A DNA stretch of 22,627 nucleotides, from positions 1 to 22,627 of the forward strand of contig JBIKWF010000067.1 in NCBI GenBank assembly GCA_044356455.1, in the 5' to 3' direction. Both the position numbers and the translations under genes were made by a program. Every line of letters begins with the position of its first letter. The first letter of the stretch is position 1. Positions 5,628-22,607 of the stretch are shown in pieces. The stretch is from Bdellovibrionota bacterium (GTDB lineage Bacteria > Bdellovibrionota_C > UBA2361 > JBGSMV01). Under the pieces are notes generated by a model, which saw only the letters and a list, made by a program, of their open reading frames with translations, searched no databases and was not told the origin of the DNA.

Positions 5628-5706
5628 AGATTTGGAGGGGAATGTACTCTGCTTTTTCTTGTCTAACCAGGTATTCAGTCAAGTGGCTGAGGGGCAACGC
5701 TCCTAG

Positions 5707-5805
5707 GGAACCTCTGAAAAACTCACCTCTGTGTACCTCTGCGTCCTCTGTGGTGAAATTTTCATGAAGAAATTCAAGGCAGAGAGCACGGAGGTACACA
5801 GAGGT
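5707..5805. repeat. IS5-like end (GGAACCTCTGAAAAA) plus palindromic periodic repeat, left of greB
   Basis: TIR-like 15-mer at 5707-5721 preceded by CTAG. Internal inverted arms at 5725-5750 and 5780-5805, with the outer 15 bp perfectly complementary. Confidence 0.85.
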
Positions 5806-6418: not shown

Positions 6419-6495
6419 GAGAACCGCACTCTTCAGATTTGCAGGGCGTAAGAAAGTTAGGCGCAAAACGCTAGTACCACTTTAGATATTATTGA

Positions 6496-6639
6496 ACCAC
6501 AAAGGACGCTAAGGACGCAAAGAAGGCTCAACTTTAAGGTGTTCCTTTGTGTCCCTTGCGTCCTTTGTGGTGAATTTCTTGATGAAATTTCACCACAGAC
6601 GACCGAGAGGTACACAGAGGTGAGTTCTTCAGAGGTTCC
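6496..6639. repeat. Three alternating periodic repeat arms ending in an IS5-like end, right of greB
   Basis: 6496-6522 pairs with 6545-6571 (24/27). 6571-6639 is nearly the reverse complement of 5707-5776. Ends TTCTTCAGAGGTTCC followed by TTAG. Confidence 0.85.
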
Positions 6640-6760
6640 TTAGGTCCCAGCCGCAAGTTTCTTCCGCGGTGGTGCCTACCATAGCTTCGTGTAATTCTAG
6701 GACTTCTCATGCCCTTTCTCAAGGTGGGCAAGCCTATGAATCTTGGTAAGGAACTTCACG

Positions 6761-7045: not shown

Positions 7046-7066
7046 GGACTCGCAGAGATTACCTAA

Positions 7067-7146
7067 GGAACCTCTGAAAAAGTCCACTCAGTGATCTCTG
7101 TGCCCTCTGTGGTTGATTTAAATTGTTAAAAAACTACAGAGGTTCC
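7067..7146. mobile_element. 80-bp MITE with IS5-subgroup-like ends, internally deleted form
   Basis: GGAACCTCTG...CAGAGGTTCC perfect 10-bp terminal IR, flanked by CTAA direct repeats at 7063-7066 and 7147-7150. Confidence 0.85.
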
Positions 7147-12773: not shown

Positions 12774-13355
12774 CTATTTAAGAATATTGCTTTTTATGTG
12801 AGGCAGGGGATTCTTCCTTGGCGCGGGGGTGGGGGCCGTAGGAGCGTGGGTAGCGGAAGCGCCTGGGGGGACAATCACTTTATTGCTACGCACTATATAG
12901 GTGTCGCGATGCTCGATAATTGTCACGTTAACGGGCTGGGGAGGTGCTGTTGGCGGAATTTGAGCCCGCTCCCTACTTGCACGTTCTATCTTTCGGTCGA
13001 GCTCTGCACTCGCGTCTGCAGCAGCGGACTTGCAGTCTGCCACTGGCGAGTCTAGGGGCGCGCAGCGCTCAAGTACGGGAAGTACCGAGAAGGAGATATC
13101 GTAGGAGCGTTTTGCGCTCAGCACTTTTGCGTCCAGATCAGAAATAATACGCCTTCTTTCTAGGCGGGCTGCGTCGGAGGTCACGCTAAGGTTGCCTTCC
13201 TGAGAGCTCGTGCTGCTCACGGATGAAAGACTAGAGGCAGATTGGGCTGCAGCGCTCTGACCTAAAGCAACTTGTACGCTCGCAGCGGGCAAAACAGGCG
13301 TAAAGAAAAGCACGAGGGTGCGAGCTGCAAGACTGGTTAGTTTTATGTGTGTCAT
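12774..13355 (-). CDS. Putative exported hypothetical protein
   Basis: 193 aa with ATG start, signal-peptide-like N-terminus, Ser-rich linker, two Cys and a Pro-rich tail. Confidence 0.7.
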   Translation of the reverse strand: MTHIKLTSLAARTLVLFFTPVLPAASVQVALGQSAAAQSASSLSSVSSTSSQEGNLSVTSDAARLERRRIISDLDAKVLSAKRSYDISFSVLPVLERCAPLDSPVADCKSAAADASAELDRKIERASRERAQIPPTAPPQPVNVTIIEHRDTYIVRSNKVIVPPGASATHAPTAPTPAPRKNPLPHIKSNILK

Positions 13356-13872: not shown

Positions 13873-13877
13873 GCTAA

Positions 13878-14007
13878 GGAAGCTCTGAAAAAATCTGCTC
13901 TGTGAACTCTGTGCCCTCTGTGGTTGATTTAAATTGTTGAAAAACCACAGAGGGCACAGAGAACACGGAGGGAAAGAAATAAAATATCTAGGTTTTTCAG
14001 AGGTTCC
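13878..14007. mobile_element. 130-bp MITE with IS5-subgroup-like ends, full form
   Basis: TIRs GGAAGCTCTGAAAAA / TTTTTCAGAGGTTCC (14/15), CTAA direct repeats at 13874-13877 and 14008-14011, and an internal 28-bp inverted repeat at 13898-13925/13943-13970 (25/28). Confidence 0.9.
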
Positions 14008-14213
14008 CTAAGTGATAGGAGCCGCTTGAACTAAAGCCAGACATCCCAGCTCTCGGCGCGAAGGCTGGGGAAAGTGGGTATCCTTGAGGCATACGCTAGT
14101 GTTTCGGGGCATTTCGGACCGGTGCCACGGGGCTTAAGTCAGTTCGCGGTAATGCTAGCGGGTTCATAATCCCACACTTTACATACCTCGGATTTTTGAT
14201 GATAATTCGAAGT

Positions 14214-19417: not shown

Positions 19418-19858
19418 GGTGGTTTAACCGTCGTGATTCACAGCCTTCAAGGGCTGCGGGGAAGTCATCCAAAGAGAGTATCAGTACAACAAATCGTGGA
19501 GTGAATCTCCTGAGGCGCAATGCCCGCTGATACTCCAAAACTAAATCCCCACGGTACGGGTTATGTGTCCCAGAAGTCGCTAAGTGCCTTTATTCGGGGC
19601 TTTTTGCCCGGCGCGTGTTCCTGGTTGCCTAAGTTGTAGTATTATCTTGTAGATTCAAGTGGTTATATATCCGAAGACTTGCCCCGTTAGGTTCGCCTTA
19701 TGTGCTCTATAAATGAATAGGAGCTAGTAGTATCAACTCTGAGCTCGTAGTGGTTCAGAGAACATTTAACGATGAGACCTTCATCGCCTTGATCCTCTTC
19801 ATCACCTCGCGCGCTGTCCTCTGCGTCAGACGTTGTAGTACTTTAGTTGTCGAGAATT

Positions 19859-20887
19859 ATGACACGCCGGGAAATCAACAACGTCCGCCTTTCTGACAAC
19901 GTACGTTTTGCAGAAATGGCAGCGAAACATTTTGGTCTGCCTTGCCAAATGCTTGATGAGCATAGCGGATATTTGTGCCGAATCGGGAACGGATCTGATG
20001 CCTTTCTCATAGGAGGCGGAAACGTCTCTTCCTGGCCAGTGAACAATGCCACTGCATCAACTCTTGCTACCGATAAAGGGTTTACTGCGGTGGTGCTTGA
20101 GGAGCAGCAACTTCGCGCTCCGAAAGGTTCTACGATCTTCTTAAGTGATCGCTACGCGTTACTCCGCGAGAAGGGACGGGAGCTAAGCGATGCCTCTTCA
20201 ATCGCGGATGCTCTTGGCTGGCCAGTTATCGCTAAGCCGAACAACGGAAGCCGTGGAGCATTCGTACGCCTTTGTAAAGATGCCGAGGAGCTCGAGGCGC
20301 ATCTTGTTCGCATGGGTGAGAGATACGATATCGGGCTCGTGCAGGAATACGTGCGGGGAGACGAGTACCGTGTATTTGTCTTTGGTGAAGAAGCCGTTTT
20401 TTCATATCGTAAGCAGCGCGGAGCTATTGTTGGCGACGGCAAGCATGCAGTTGCCGAACTGATCGCGCGCCTTAGCGCTGAGCTTGTAGGACATGGACTT
20501 GATCCAATTGATCCGAAATCAAAGACGCTTGTGGATGCTATGGAGCGTCACCAACTCAGCATGCATAGCGTACTTCCTGGTGGGTTTAGCTTAGAGGTGG
20601 GAGCGCGAGCGAACCTTTCTGCGGGCGGCAGTCCTGCTGAATTCACCACGAAGGTTCCGCGTCTACTAGCGGAGACTGGCATTCGGGCAACGAAAGCCCT
20701 GGGCCTCGTGGTTGCAGGAGTAGATATCATTCTTCCAAAAGAGCCTACGCAGATTCCTGTGGTAATAGAAGTTAATTCGAATCCGGCCGTAACTTCGCTC
20801 GAAAAGGTAGATAGGCTTGATGTTGCCCTAAGCATTTTTGGAAGGATGTTTAAGCGCTTGCTCCCTCAAAAGGGTCATTATGAATGA
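19859..20887 (+). CDS. ATP-grasp ligase, cyanophycin synthetase/GshF-type
   Basis: ATDKGFT..VL, GWPVIAKPNNGSRG, LVQEYVRGDEYRV, IVGDGKHAVAELI, ANLSAGG, AGVDI, VIEVNSNP. The GDG..ELI insert and ANLSxGG are typical of CphA/GshF grasp domains. The ORF is open from 19847. Confidence 0.9.
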   Translation: MTRREINNVRLSDNVRFAEMAAKHFGLPCQMLDEHSGYLCRIGNGSDAFLIGGGNVSSWPVNNATASTLATDKGFTAVVLEEQQLRAPKGSTIFLSDRYALLREKGRELSDASSIADALGWPVIAKPNNGSRGAFVRLCKDAEELEAHLVRMGERYDIGLVQEYVRGDEYRVFVFGEEAVFSYRKQRGAIVGDGKHAVAELIARLSAELVGHGLDPIDPKSKTLVDAMERHQLSMHSVLPGGFSLEVGARANLSAGGSPAEFTTKVPRLLAETGIRATKALGLVVAGVDIILPKEPTQIPVVIEVNSNPAVTSLEKVDRLDVALSIFGRMFKRLLPQKGHYE

Positions 20888-22199
20888 GGTGCTGCGTGAC
20901 TTCGCCACGCGCCCAAAATTTGGAAGTGGGCCTGGGCTCTCGCGGAGCGAAAAATTATTAGAGCTTCTGAAGCTCACTCCCATGTCGACTATCGGAGTCA
21001 CGGGGAGTAATGGAAAGGGCTCTACCTCAACGATGGCGGCGGCTCTTCTCTCCGCGGCGGGGCTTCGCACTGGTCTCTATACTTCGCCTCATTTTCTTGA
21101 GCCCACAGAGAGATTTCGAATAGACGGAAATCCCATCTCTCTTGATCTGCTTGAAGATGCACTGAGGCAAGTAACTGAAGCTGCTGACAAGCTTGCCAAA
21201 GAGCTTGGGGAAGAGTTCTCTCGATTCGAGCTCCTGACCGCGGCAGCCTGGTATATTTTTAAGCAAGAGCGCGTCGATGCAGTAGTCATGGAGGTGGGAA
21301 TTGGAGGAAGGTACTGTCCTACCAAGTTAGGAAAGCCATCCGTTACTGCTCTTACTTCTCTTGATCTTGAGCATTCTGAGATTCTCGGATCCACGCTAGA
21401 GCTTATTGGCTGTGATAAACTTGAACTAACGCCCAAGGGTGGAGTCTGCTATGCGGCTCTACCTGAGAACTCTGCGCTAAGGAGTAACCTGGCAGACCAT
21501 GCGCGGAGTTTGGGAATTTCGCTTGTGCTACTAGAGGAGGCCTGGCCAAAGCTTCGCTACCTCTTGGGCGACAAGCCATGTCTTTCTGGAGTTACTTCTC
21601 AGGGGAATACGTTAGAAGTTCCTCTGCCCTTGCTGGGACCCTGGCAGGCAAAAAATGCGGCGCTTGCAATCTCCTGCGTCCAGGCAGCGCTTACTAACAT
21701 GGGGAAATCTGTTTCTTGGGAAGAATTTAAGGGCTGGACTGCGCGTGGATTGTCAGCGGCGCAAGTTCCAGGGCGGTTCACTCAAGTGCATGAAGCCCCT
21801 TTGGTGATTGTTGATGCGGCTCACACTCCTGATGCAATACGGCAAGTGGTCGAATTCATCAGTAAGAACCACGGAAAGGAAGGCGTGGTACTCTGCGGAA
21901 TATCCGCGAGCAAGCCAGTACCGGAGATGGCATTTCTCTTATCTTCTCTCCCCTATGATTTTTATGTCTCCACGACTACGCACGGGGGCGCAGATCCGCA
22001 ACTAATTTCCTCGGTGCTTCAGTCGAATTCCGCCTCAGTGCTTGGTCTCGGAGTTGACCTAAAAATGCTTTTGAGGCAAGCCATGGCGCGTGCTTCGCAA
22101 AGGGCAGTACCTCTTTTTGTGCTGGGCGGACTTTTCTTTGCCGCTGAGGTTTCGCGCACTCTTCTGGGCAAAGAAACTAGGGAACAAATATATTTGTGA
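20880..22199 (+). CDS. folC: FolC-like (folylpolyglutamate/dihydrofolate synthase family) Mur ligase, divergent
   Basis: VTGSNGKGST, GLYTSPH, ERFRIDG, FELLT, EVGIGGR, PGRF, IVDAAH. ATG at 20880 overlaps the upstream stop (ATGAATGA). Confidence 0.85.
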   Translation: MNEVLRDFATRPKFGSGPGLSRSEKLLELLKLTPMSTIGVTGSNGKGSTSTMAAALLSAAGLRTGLYTSPHFLEPTERFRIDGNPISLDLLEDALRQVTEAADKLAKELGEEFSRFELLTAAAWYIFKQERVDAVVMEVGIGGRYCPTKLGKPSVTALTSLDLEHSEILGSTLELIGCDKLELTPKGGVCYAALPENSALRSNLADHARSLGISLVLLEEAWPKLRYLLGDKPCLSGVTSQGNTLEVPLPLLGPWQAKNAALAISCVQAALTNMGKSVSWEEFKGWTARGLSAAQVPGRFTQVHEAPLVIVDAAHTPDAIRQVVEFISKNHGKEGVVLCGISASKPVPEMAFLLSSLPYDFYVSTTTHGGADPQLISSVLQSNSASVLGLGVDLKMLLRQAMARASQRAVPLFVLGGLFFAAEVSRTLLGKETREQIYL

Positions 22200-22441: not shown

Positions 22442-22607
22442 CGCGGAGACACGGAGACCGCGGAGGGGAGATAGAATCGAGATTTTGCTCAGCTCTGTGC
22501 CTTAGCATAATTGCTAGATATGCCGAAAATTCGCAAACAAAATCCTGGTAACATCCAGAAAGTTATAAATTTGCAGGCGAACACTCCGCGGTCTCCGTGT
22601 CTCCGCG
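22442..22607. repeat. Perfect 24-bp inverted repeat of the periodic family with a 118-bp spacer
   Basis: CGCGGAGACACGGAGACCGCGGAG (22442-22465) is the exact reverse complement of 22584-22607. Confidence 0.92.

What the first reader, a model, noticed from the sequence alone, without database searches (positions are those of the whole stretch)
19859..22199. Coupled ATP-grasp + divergent FolC-type ligase: candidate undescribed peptide/polyamide synthetase, resembling a split cyanophycin synthetase
Seen: a CphA/GshF-type ATP-grasp gene overlaps a FolC-family gene by 8 nt (ATGAATGA), suggesting translational coupling. No accD, dedD or valS context and no cyanophycinase appear in the window. Established: CphA1 joins an ATP-grasp domain to a Mur-ligase domain to build a branched polyamide, and FolC is a Mur-superfamily Glu ligase. 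Inference: the two proteins may act in sequence to make a non-ribosomal peptide, a poly-amino acid or a modified cofactor tail, with a FolC paralogue standing in for the CphA M domain.
Basis: partly seen in the sequence, partly recalled or inferred. Interest (0 to 1): 0.75.

Follow-up and report, generated by a model that had tools for sequence, protein, structure and literature searches.

The report
Folate-tail ligase pair, product unknown
Two overlapping genes encode a pair of ATP-driven amide-bond-forming enzymes that occur together in distant bacteria in addition to the normal folate enzyme; they are not a split cyanophycin synthetase and most likely build an unusual tail on folate, but the product has not been identified.

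Summary
A 342-aa CphA-G/GshF-type ATP-grasp gene (19859-20887) overlaps a 439-aa FolC-family gene (20880-22199) by ATGAATGA. The genome has a separate, canonical folC, so the window gene is a paralogue, in a distinct clade (22 rows, SH-aLRT 100). The partnership is real: the same 8-nt overlap occurs in Bradyrhizobium-like loci at about 33% identity, and among 124 genomes of the phylum both families occur in the same 4, unlinked in 3. 'Split cyanophycin synthetase' fails: no N domain, three CphA specificity residues replaced, partner FolC-type rather than MurE-type, no cyanophycinase. The paralogue keeps the FolC catalytic core and, family-wide, the pterin-site Asp (134 of 138), and is closest to monofunctional L. 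casei FPGS, but has a rebuilt acceptor pocket (Ser403 to Gly in 138 of 138). Best reading (0.45): an accessory module that builds a non-canonical folate tail (mixed alpha/gamma, branched or capped). Against: this copy has Cys for that Asp; substrates are untested. The scan noted this pair before in two other genomes; my 10 literature searches found no description.

The parts
19859..20887 (+). Stand-alone ATP-grasp ligase (342 aa, P0001) of the CphA G-domain / GshF type, with the omega insertion (about residues 187-257) and a family-specific lid insertion F94..R103..G106-x-E108; catalytic set K73, K126, R171, N252, D289, E304, N306 intact
   Evidence: (model pLDDT 91)
20880..20887 (+). 8-nt start/stop overlap ATGAATGA; AAGGG at 20870-20874 may serve as ribosome-binding site
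   Evidence: same geometry in L010, L015, L012
20880..22199 (+). FolC paralogue (439 aa, P0002), FPGS-like Mur-superfamily ligase; signature GSNGKGS / GIGGRx[DC]PTK / DK / DxxHT / GGLF; Cys146 stands where FolC has the conserved Asp
   Evidence: (model pLDDT 93)
19418..19858 (.). 441-nt region shared with the divergent 990-aa ORF; presumed promoter region. No sigma-70-like site was found upstream of the pair and no Rfam family; a related strain has different sequence before 19850
   Evidence: table 7

Best explanation
The two genes are an accessory folate-tail module that works beside the housekeeping FolC. The FolC paralogue acts like a monofunctional folylpolyglutamate synthetase: it binds a reduced folate, phosphorylates the side-chain (gamma) carboxylate of its terminal glutamate with ATP and adds an amine. 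The ATP-grasp enzyme activates a C-terminal alpha-carboxylate and adds an amino acid, most likely Glu or Asp. Together they would give a tail that plain FolC cannot make: mixed alpha/gamma-linked, branched, or capped with another residue. Two orders fit: (a) alternation on the growing tail, the CphA logic; (b) the ATP-grasp first makes a small peptide that the FolC paralogue adds en bloc, the Ddl/MurF logic, which would explain the opened acceptor pocket. Shown: the genes, their families, intact catalytic residues, the separate canonical folC, joint occurrence. Inferred: folate as substrate, the identity of the amino acids, the linkage and the order.
For: Paralogue in addition to canonical folC and folP. 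One clade of 22 rows, SH-aLRT 100, stem 0.75. Catalytic core kept in both subgroups of 138 paralogues versus 88 canonical FolC: K60, S83-P84-H85, E91-R92, F124-E125, E146, H173, K188, R289, D302, H305, K336 (E. coli numbers). D154 kept in 134 of 138, F124 in 137 of 138; a conserved Asp and hydrophobic stacking define the pterin site (PMC4790348, passages; the residue numbers are my recall). The family profile scores best on L. casei FPGS (266 bits versus 182 for E. coli FolC) and shares its N-terminal P-[RK] motif and GIGG; that enzyme has no DHFS activity (PMC2877875, passages). Fold matches FPGS/FolC (TM 0.76-0.86, ranks 1-16) ahead of Mur ligases (0.66 or less). Clade-wide changes cluster at positions that I recall as the incoming-glutamate site: S403G 138 of 138, N306T/S 138 of 138, M/L333S 138 of 138. 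Strict co-occurrence with the ATP-grasp family: same 4 of 124 genomes; pairwise identities of the two proteins correlate over 9 pairs, r = 0.84, Mantel p = 1.5e-4. The ATP-grasp keeps a basic residue (K 94, R 31 of 127) and Asn (117 of 127) at the positions that hold the side-chain carboxylate of Asp in TeCphA1. Other tailed cofactors look absent from G000, G100, G106, G107: no mch, no cofD. In G106 and G107 the canonical FolC has lost H85 and R92, while congener G105, without the pair, keeps them. Precedent for ATP-grasp enzymes making alpha/gamma branched cofactor tails: methylofuran (PMC8141765, passages).
Against: No substrate is shown. This copy and its 3 closest homologues have Cys for the Asp that is invariant in 88 of 88 canonical FolC. 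Strain variants give 13 replacement and 11 silent codons in the FolC paralogue, one at the near-invariant His368 (40 of 52 differences examined, low-depth contigs), which suggests weak constraint in this lineage. The pair does not cluster with folate genes in the window or in L010, L012, L015; only G107 has its paralogue about 700 nt upstream of a gene I recognise as glyA. N394 and a basic residue at R323 are also present in GshF, which adds Gly, so they do not prove an acidic acceptor. The G106/G107 degeneration is one event, G000 keeps a normal canonical FolC, and the E125V change I first noticed proved lineage-wide and unrelated to the pair. Most of the 138 paralogues (121) are close kin, and the Mantel test uses related, partly contig-length-matched pairs.
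Confidence: 0.45

Rival explanations
1. The pair makes a small folate-free peptide. The FolC paralogue has become a gamma-glutamyl (or other acyl) ligase for a small substrate and the GshF-type ATP-grasp adds the last residue, giving a glutathione-like thiol or a compatible-solute peptide.
For: Top Foldseek match of the ATP-grasp model is GshF (3ln6, E 3.3e-19) and the N-x-N-P motif (N308 105 of 127, P309 123 of 127) resembles GshF rather than CphA. GshB and GCS2-type GshA were not found in the 5 genomes searched. Acceptor-pocket changes and the Cys for Asp154 in this copy fit a change of substrate.
Against: The pterin-site positions are kept in nearly all members. The P-loop has Arg, not the Tyr/Phe of GshF (PMC9427784). 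G034 also lacks gshB and GCS2 yet has no pair. Bradyrhizobium has the ordinary glutathione pathway (own knowledge, not tested). The PF04262-type GshA was not searched.
Confidence: 0.2
2. The paralogue is simply a second, monofunctional FPGS that lengthens ordinary gamma-glutamate tails, and the ATP-grasp is a co-regulated enzyme with a separate target (for example a protein C-terminus, as for RimK or LysX).
For: Passes the folC cut-off; closest to L. casei FPGS; the tightest structural core matches of the ATP-grasp are ArgX, LysX and RimK (Z 21.8, 20.5, 19.8); the genes are unlinked in 3 of 4 phylum genomes.
Against: Neither gene was found without the other in 124 genomes, which two independent functions do not predict. 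The Ser of the GS motif is kept in 87 of 88 canonical FolC and in L. casei FPGS but is Gly in all 138 paralogues.
Confidence: 0.15
3. Split cyanophycin-like polymerase: the two enzymes alternate on a free, primer-grown branched polyamide (a storage polymer such as Glu- or Asp-backbone with side-chain residues). True cyanophycin is the extreme case.
For: Gene order ATP-grasp then Mur-superfamily ligase as in CphA1; best family and longest structural coverage are CphA (308 residues aligned to 7lgm); omega module, R309, N394, S396 equivalents kept.
Against: No N domain (342 aa, match starts at CphA position 167). E215, H267 and R458 replaced: His in 6 and Arg in 9 of 127 members. The partner is FolC-type, whereas the CphA M domain is close to MurE/MurF (PMC11915815). 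No S51 peptidase in G000 or G100 (G000 is 93% complete).
Confidence: 0.1

Closest known systems
Monofunctional folylpolyglutamate synthetase of Lactobacillus casei (PDB 1fgs, 1jbw) and bifunctional FolC (E. coli 1w78, M. tuberculosis 2vor)
   Same: Fold (TM 0.76-0.86), ATP/Mg catalytic residues, pterin-site positions in most members, N-terminal P-[RK] motif and GIGG shared with the L. casei enzyme
   Different: Separate clade present in addition to canonical folC; GSNGK for GTNGK, PTR/PTK for ATN, DKxD/E for EKAG, HT for HN, GG for GS; obligate-looking ATP-grasp partner
Cyanophycin synthetase CphA1 (N-G-M; PDB 7wae, 7lg5) and CphA2
   Same: ATP-grasp with omega module followed by a Mur-superfamily ligase; K220, K261, R309, N394, D431, E450 equivalents kept
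   Different: Two proteins; no N domain; E215, H267, R458 replaced; FolC-type instead of MurE-type second enzyme; extra lid insertion; no cyanophycinase found
GshF/GshAB bifunctional glutathione synthetase, ATP-grasp domain (PDB 3ln6, 3ln7)
   Same: Top Foldseek match; omega module; N-x-N-P motif
   Different: Stand-alone; no gamma-glutamylcysteine ligase domain; P-loop Arg instead of Tyr/Phe; 19-22% identity
Cofactor-tail ATP-grasp ligases MyfA/MyfB (methylofuran), MptN, CofF, RimK
   Same: Functional precedent: ATP-grasp enzymes that add glutamates to a cofactor tail, giving alpha/gamma branched chains in methylofuran (PMC8141765)
   Different: Different ATP-grasp subfamily (MptN model 51 bits, cut-off 350; RimK family 89 bits, cut-off 143); those systems use no FolC paralogue; mch and cofD not found in these genomes
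Ddl plus MurF
   Same: An ATP-grasp and a Mur-superfamily ligase working in series, the first making a dipeptide that the second adds (PMC11915815)
   Different: Neither protein belongs to these families (Ddl models 39 bits or less, MurF 31 bits)

Membership tests
Cyanophycin synthetase CphA1 | Single N-G-M polypeptide above the family cut-off | tested here: not met
   342 aa, 109 bits versus 850; no genome match over cut-off in 5 genomes, though no control genome passed the cut-off either
Cyanophycin synthetase CphA1 | G-domain catalytic residues K220, K261, R309, N394, D431, E450 | tested here: met
   K73, K126, R171 in 127 of 127; N252 117, D289 124, E304 118 of 127
Cyanophycin synthetase CphA1 | Specificity residues E215, H267, R458 | tested here: not met
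   T68, R132, T312 in P0001; His 6 and Arg 9 of 127 members, Glu not among the five commonest residues; positions mapped by hand
Cyanophycin synthetase CphA1 | MurE-like M domain | tested here: not met
   Partner scores 246 bits on folC, 57 on murE, 24-27 on CphA models; fold ranks 1-17 are FolC/FPGS
Cyanophycin synthetase CphA1 | Cyanophycinase (S51 peptidase) nearby or in the genome | tested here: not met
   None in G000 (93% complete) or G100; S51 hits in G034, G106, G107 were not typed
FolC / FPGS family | Family model above cut-off and FolC fold | tested here: met
   TIGR01499 246 bits versus 162.65; TM up to 0.86
FolC / FPGS family | ATP/Mg catalytic residues (P-loop Lys, SPH loop, Glu146, His173, Lys188, Arg289, Asp302, His305) | tested here: met
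   All kept in 138 of 138; roles recalled
FolC / FPGS family | Pterin-site Asp (E. coli D154) | tested here: inconclusive
   Asp in 134 of 138 paralogues, but Cys in the window protein and 3 close homologues
Canonical housekeeping FolC (DHFS-FPGS orthologue) | Orthology with the vertically inherited folC and the motifs GTNGK, ATN, EKAG, HN, GS | tested here: not met
   The genome's other folC (329 bits, between parB-like and ispA-like genes) groups with the congener's orthologue; 27% identity between the two; motifs differ
FolC / FPGS family | Adds L-Glu to dihydropteroate or tetrahydrofolate; complements a folC mutant | not testable with these tools
   needs assay
GshF/GshAB | Fusion to a gamma-glutamylcysteine ligase domain, cut-off | tested here: not met
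   71 bits versus 425; stand-alone 342 aa
GshF/GshAB | P-loop Tyr/Phe | tested here: not met
   Arg132; Phe in 7 of 127 members
RimK / LysX / MptN alpha-L-glutamate ligases | Family cut-off; compact fold without omega insertion | tested here: not met
   TIGR00768 89 versus 143 bits in two stretches split by the insertion; core fold similar, Z about 20
RimK / LysX / MptN alpha-L-glutamate ligases | Forms alpha-glutamyl bonds | not testable with these tools
   needs assay

The most novel reading that the evidence does not exclude
The pair is a previously undescribed folate-primed polyamide synthetase: a FolC offshoot and a CphA-G-type ATP-grasp alternately activate side-chain and backbone carboxylates to grow a branched, mixed-linkage or non-glutamate tail on folate. 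Common soil and freshwater bacteria, Bradyrhizobium among them, would then carry a chemically new form of the universal one-carbon cofactor, and the pair would show how CphA-like two-site polymerases can be assembled from free parts.
Probability: 0.3. Interest if true: 0.85.

Novelty: new variant of a known kind. Interest (0 to 1): 0.6.

Why it matters
Bacterial folate tails are generally treated as linear gamma-glutamate chains made by FolC. A second FolC clade with a rebuilt acceptor site and a constant ATP-grasp partner, with over 2,000 sequence clusters near the Bradyrhizobium form and now labelled 'FolC' or 'cyanophycin synthetase' in databases, points to tail chemistry or a peptide product that has not been described. 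It is directly testable with two soluble enzymes in a culturable, genetically tractable host, it would correct a common mis-annotation, and amide ligases with new specificity are useful catalysts.

Tried and rejected
Genome-collection scans for loci of the ATP-grasp found nothing and one was not possible; viral contigs gave nothing; plasmids hold no member of either family at the limits used. The metagenome scan used generic folC patterns, so it is a sample of folC loci, not a census of the pair. Whole-genome presence tests outside the window's phylum could not be made, so co-occurrence in Alphaproteobacteria rests on three contigs and on database labels. Complex prediction of the two proteins gave no verdict. 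No RNA holder was listed. No Rfam family, and no more promoter- or terminator-like sites than in shuffles. The idea that canonical FolC loses E125 where the pair is present was rejected: E125V is also in 7 of 10 control genomes without the pair. No conserved third gene was seen around either gene in the window, G100, G106, G107 or the Bradyrhizobium-like loci. Guessing B. diazoefficiens locus tags gave no useful paper. Four papers on FolC structure, FolC mutants and ATP-grasp neighbourhoods were not held, so roles of individual FolC residues are from recall. The careful tree search did not finish; the quick tree was used. No tree of the ATP-grasp family was built.
Full report
Observation. The window encodes a 342-aa protein at 19859-20887 and a 439-aa protein at 20880-22199, both on the + strand. 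The second ATG lies inside the end of the first gene as ATGAATGA. The first protein is an ATP-grasp ligase: its best NCBIfam match is cyanophycin synthetase (109 bits over residues 21-310, model positions 167-447, cut-off 850), then the RimK family (89), NAGGN synthetase (73) and GshAB (71), all under cut-off. The second passes the folC cut-off (246 versus 162.65). The pair is flanked by a divergent 990-aa ORF without Pfam match and a 61-aa ORF; nothing folate-, cell-wall- or cyanophycin-related is among the 12 ORFs scanned. GC (0.52) and GC3 (0.47-0.49) are like the genome (0.525) and the canonical folC (GC3 0.49). Contigs of four other lake-water runs cover most of the stretch without indels.

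The FolC gene is a paralogue. The genome (93% complete) has a better folC on contig C111 (329 bits) between genes I recognise as parB and ispA, 27% identical to the window protein, and it has folP. In a tree of 59 FolC-family proteins the window protein and 21 relatives form one side of a branch with SH-aLRT 100 and a stem of 0.75, while the C111 protein groups with the orthologue of the congener G034 (quick search, midpoint root). I call this clade FolC2 for convenience; it is unrelated to the CofE-type 'FolC2' of Chlamydia (PMC1971073, passages).

The partnership is conserved. (1) Five of the 8 closest full-length ATP-grasp homologues and 5 of the 12 closest FolC2 homologues share longest-contig lengths (9284, 6279, 5039, 11080, 24122): indirect evidence of linkage, DNA not seen. 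(2) Of 80 metagenome folC loci, 3 carry FolC2 (L010, L012, L015). L010 and L015 have the ATP-grasp directly upstream at 34-37% identity to the window protein, with the same 8-nt overlap; L012 starts 15 nt before the gene and shows the same last six codons as the L015 ATP-grasp. None of the other 77 loci had an ATP-grasp hit; 58 of these were classified as non-FolC2 (316 bits or less versus 575-620), 19 partial ones were not, and flanks are often short. These loci are Bradyrhizobium-like: the L010 FolC2 has 2103 clusters at E 1e-90 or better, with named hits at 79-84% identity in Bradyrhizobium, labelled 'folylpolyglutamate synthase', 'glutamate ligase domain protein' or 'cyanophycin synthetase'. 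(3) In 124 genomes of the window's phylum the ATP-grasp profile hits G000, G100, G106 and G107 at E 1e-99 or better (next 2e-47) and the FolC2 profile hits the same four at E 1e-75 or better (next 4e-68; G106 is split over two contigs). The FolC2 profile contained sequences of G100 and G107, so the scores are partly circular, but pairwise BLAST and the tree place them independently. Three matches among 123 other genomes have a naive chance of 3e-6; G106 and G107 are congeners, so this is about two independent cases besides G000. In those three genomes the genes are not adjacent. The four other genomes of the window's family lack both. (4) Pairwise identities of the two proteins correlate over 9 pairs (r = 0.84, Mantel p = 1.5e-4), with G107 discordant; kinship alone can produce much of this. 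The ATP-grasp family is wide: 127 of 221 proteins examined were full-length members at 200 bits or more, named hits include Terasakiella, Ca. Viadribacter, Vitreimonas and Symploca; their neighbours were not seen.

The ATP-grasp. The model (pLDDT 91) matches GshF and CphA best by Foldseek (E 3e-19 to 3e-16). VIA-align ranks ArgX, LysX and RimK highest on the core (Z 21.8, 20.5, 19.8 over about 240 residues) but aligns most residues to CphA (308) and GshF (290), because the protein has their omega insertion. Mapping TeCphA1 residues (PMC9427784, sections 7 and 11 read, passages of 8) by hand through the HMMER alignment: K220, K261 and R309 are kept in 127 of 127 members, N394 in 117, D431 in 124, E450 in 118; R323 is Lys or Arg in 125; S396 is Ser or Ala in 104. 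The three residues that the paper names as distinguishing CphA1 from GshF are not kept: H267 (Arg 65, His 6), E215 (Ser, Thr, Ala, Gly), R458 (Arg 9). There is no N domain. Family-specific features are N62 (127 of 127) and a lid insertion with F94 (121), R103 (110), G106 (121). So the enzyme is an intact carboxylate-amine ligase that is neither CphA nor GshF.

The FolC paralogue. The model (pLDDT 93) is FolC-like (TM 0.76-0.86 for ranks 1-16, Mur ligases 0.66 or less). In a joint alignment of 138 FolC2 (17 diverse, 121 Bradyrhizobium-like) and 88 canonical proteins (10 of 96 translated ORFs dropped: 7 FolC2 copies, 1 duplicate, 2 aberrant; 2 added) the ATP/Mg core is kept throughout, as are F124-E125, R92 and, in 134 of 138, D154. 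Clade-wide changes are T57S, L/M149I, N157R/K, E187D, G190D/E/Q, N306T/S, L/M333S, S403G and new P12, G17, H368, G370 (window numbers for the last four). From recall, not from a call: D154 and F124 hold the pterin, and S403 (S412 of L. casei FPGS) and the H305-N306 and K336 region line the site of the incoming glutamate. A review confirms in words a conserved Asp and hydrophobic stacking at the pterin site (PMC4790348, passages). The family profile is closer to L. casei FPGS (266 bits) than to Thermotoga (241), M. tuberculosis (226) or E. coli FolC (182), and shares its N-terminal P-[RK] and GIGG; L. casei FPGS lacks DHFS activity (PMC2877875, passages). This reads as a tail-extending enzyme whose folate side is conserved and whose acceptor side has been rebuilt.

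Results against this reading. The window protein and three close homologues have Cys at the D154 position, unchanged in three other runs. Strain differences give 13 replacement and 11 silent codons in FolC2, one at His368, and 5 and 8 in the ATP-grasp (40 of 52 differences examined; low depth), so constraint in this lineage may be relaxed. The pair is not in folate gene clusters. The E125V change in canonical FolC of G100, G106 and G107 is lineage-wide (7 of 10 controls). What remains is that G106 and G107 have lost H85 and R92 in canonical FolC while G105 of the same genus, without the pair, has not: one event.

Other candidate substrates. In G000, G100, G106, G107 and G034 there was no CphA over cut-off, no gshB, no GCS2, no mch and no cofD, and folP in all five; S51 peptidase was absent from G000 and G100. 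Folate is therefore the one tailed cofactor evidently present; absence of glutathione genes leaves room for the small-peptide rival but does not track the pair.

Mechanism. I commit to an accessory folate-tail module (0.45): FolC2 activates the side-chain carboxylate of the folate tail, as FPGS does by terminal extension (PMC10861534, abstract and first part read), and the ATP-grasp activates an alpha-carboxylate, as the CphA G domain does; the result is a mixed-linkage, branched or capped tail, or the ATP-grasp supplies a dipeptide as Ddl does for MurF. Methylofuran shows that ATP-grasp enzymes can build alpha/gamma branched cofactor tails (PMC8141765, passages). That E. coli has alpha-linked folylpolyglutamates is my recall only. 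Rivals: a folate-free small peptide (0.2), a plain second FPGS with an independent ATP-grasp (0.15), a cyanophycin-like free polymer (0.1).

Comparison and novelty. It works like CphA1 or Ddl/MurF in logic, and like FPGS plus MyfB in probable chemistry; it is a member of neither CphA, GshF nor RimK, and the CphA Mur domain is related to MurE/MurF, not FPGS (PMC11915815, passages). Ten full-text searches (the ones aimed at the pair were 44, 107, 117, 131) gave no description of this pair; the library lacks most subscription papers, I read no supplements, and database names show no assigned function. The scan itself noted the pair in two other genomes and two parallel cases of ATP-grasp genes tied to folate-glutamylating enzymes; these are unchecked notes, not support. 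Verdict: real, conserved, uncharacterised; new variant of a known kind; interest 0.6.

Noticed in passing
window:247-286, 5702-5805, 6495-6645, 7058-7142, 13874-14016, 22442-22607: Dispersed palindromic repeats of MITE type between genes; one pair of 24-nt perfect inverted arms lies just downstream of the finding.
   Followed up: no
window:7147-12696 (-): 1849-aa ORF with no Pfam match, a Pro-rich linker and a Lys/Arg-rich tail.
   Followed up: no
window:16445-19417 (-): 990-aa ORF with no Pfam match, divergent from the ligase pair.
   Followed up: no
window:1786-4349 (-) and 12774-13355 (-): 299-aa, 508-aa (very Lys-rich N-terminus) and 193-aa ORFs without Pfam match; neighbours are DUF445, an SLT transglycosylase, GreA/GreB and an AAA_14/DUF4143 ATPase.
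   Followed up: no
window:22245-22430 (+): 61-aa ORF with a signal-peptide-like start, 45 nt after the FolC paralogue.
   Followed up: no
window:19850: A related strain (run X4) has 206 unrelated bases before this point, 9 nt upstream of the ATP-grasp start, so the upstream flank differs between strains (one contig).
   Followed up: partly
protein P0193: A member of this ATP-grasp family fused to a flavin amine-oxidase domain and a squalene-hopene-cyclase-like domain (1042 aa); may be a real fusion or a gene-calling artefact.
   Followed up: partly
L101 and L103 (G106, G107): Canonical FolC has lost the His of SPH and the Arg of ER, unlike congener G105 which lacks the pair; E125V is common to many genomes of these families.
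   Followed up: partly
L139:1479-4996 (G107) and L093:4498-6537 (G106): G107 FolC paralogue lies upstream of genes I recognise by eye as glyA-nrdR-ribD-ribE; the G106 ATP-grasp follows a selD-like gene by 6 nt (names recalled, not scanned).
   Followed up: no
L010, L012, L015: In Bradyrhizobium-like loci the pair sits between a ferredoxin-NADP reductase-like gene (L010, L015) and an amino-acid ABC binding-protein gene (L010, L012), both on the other strand (names recalled).
   Followed up: no
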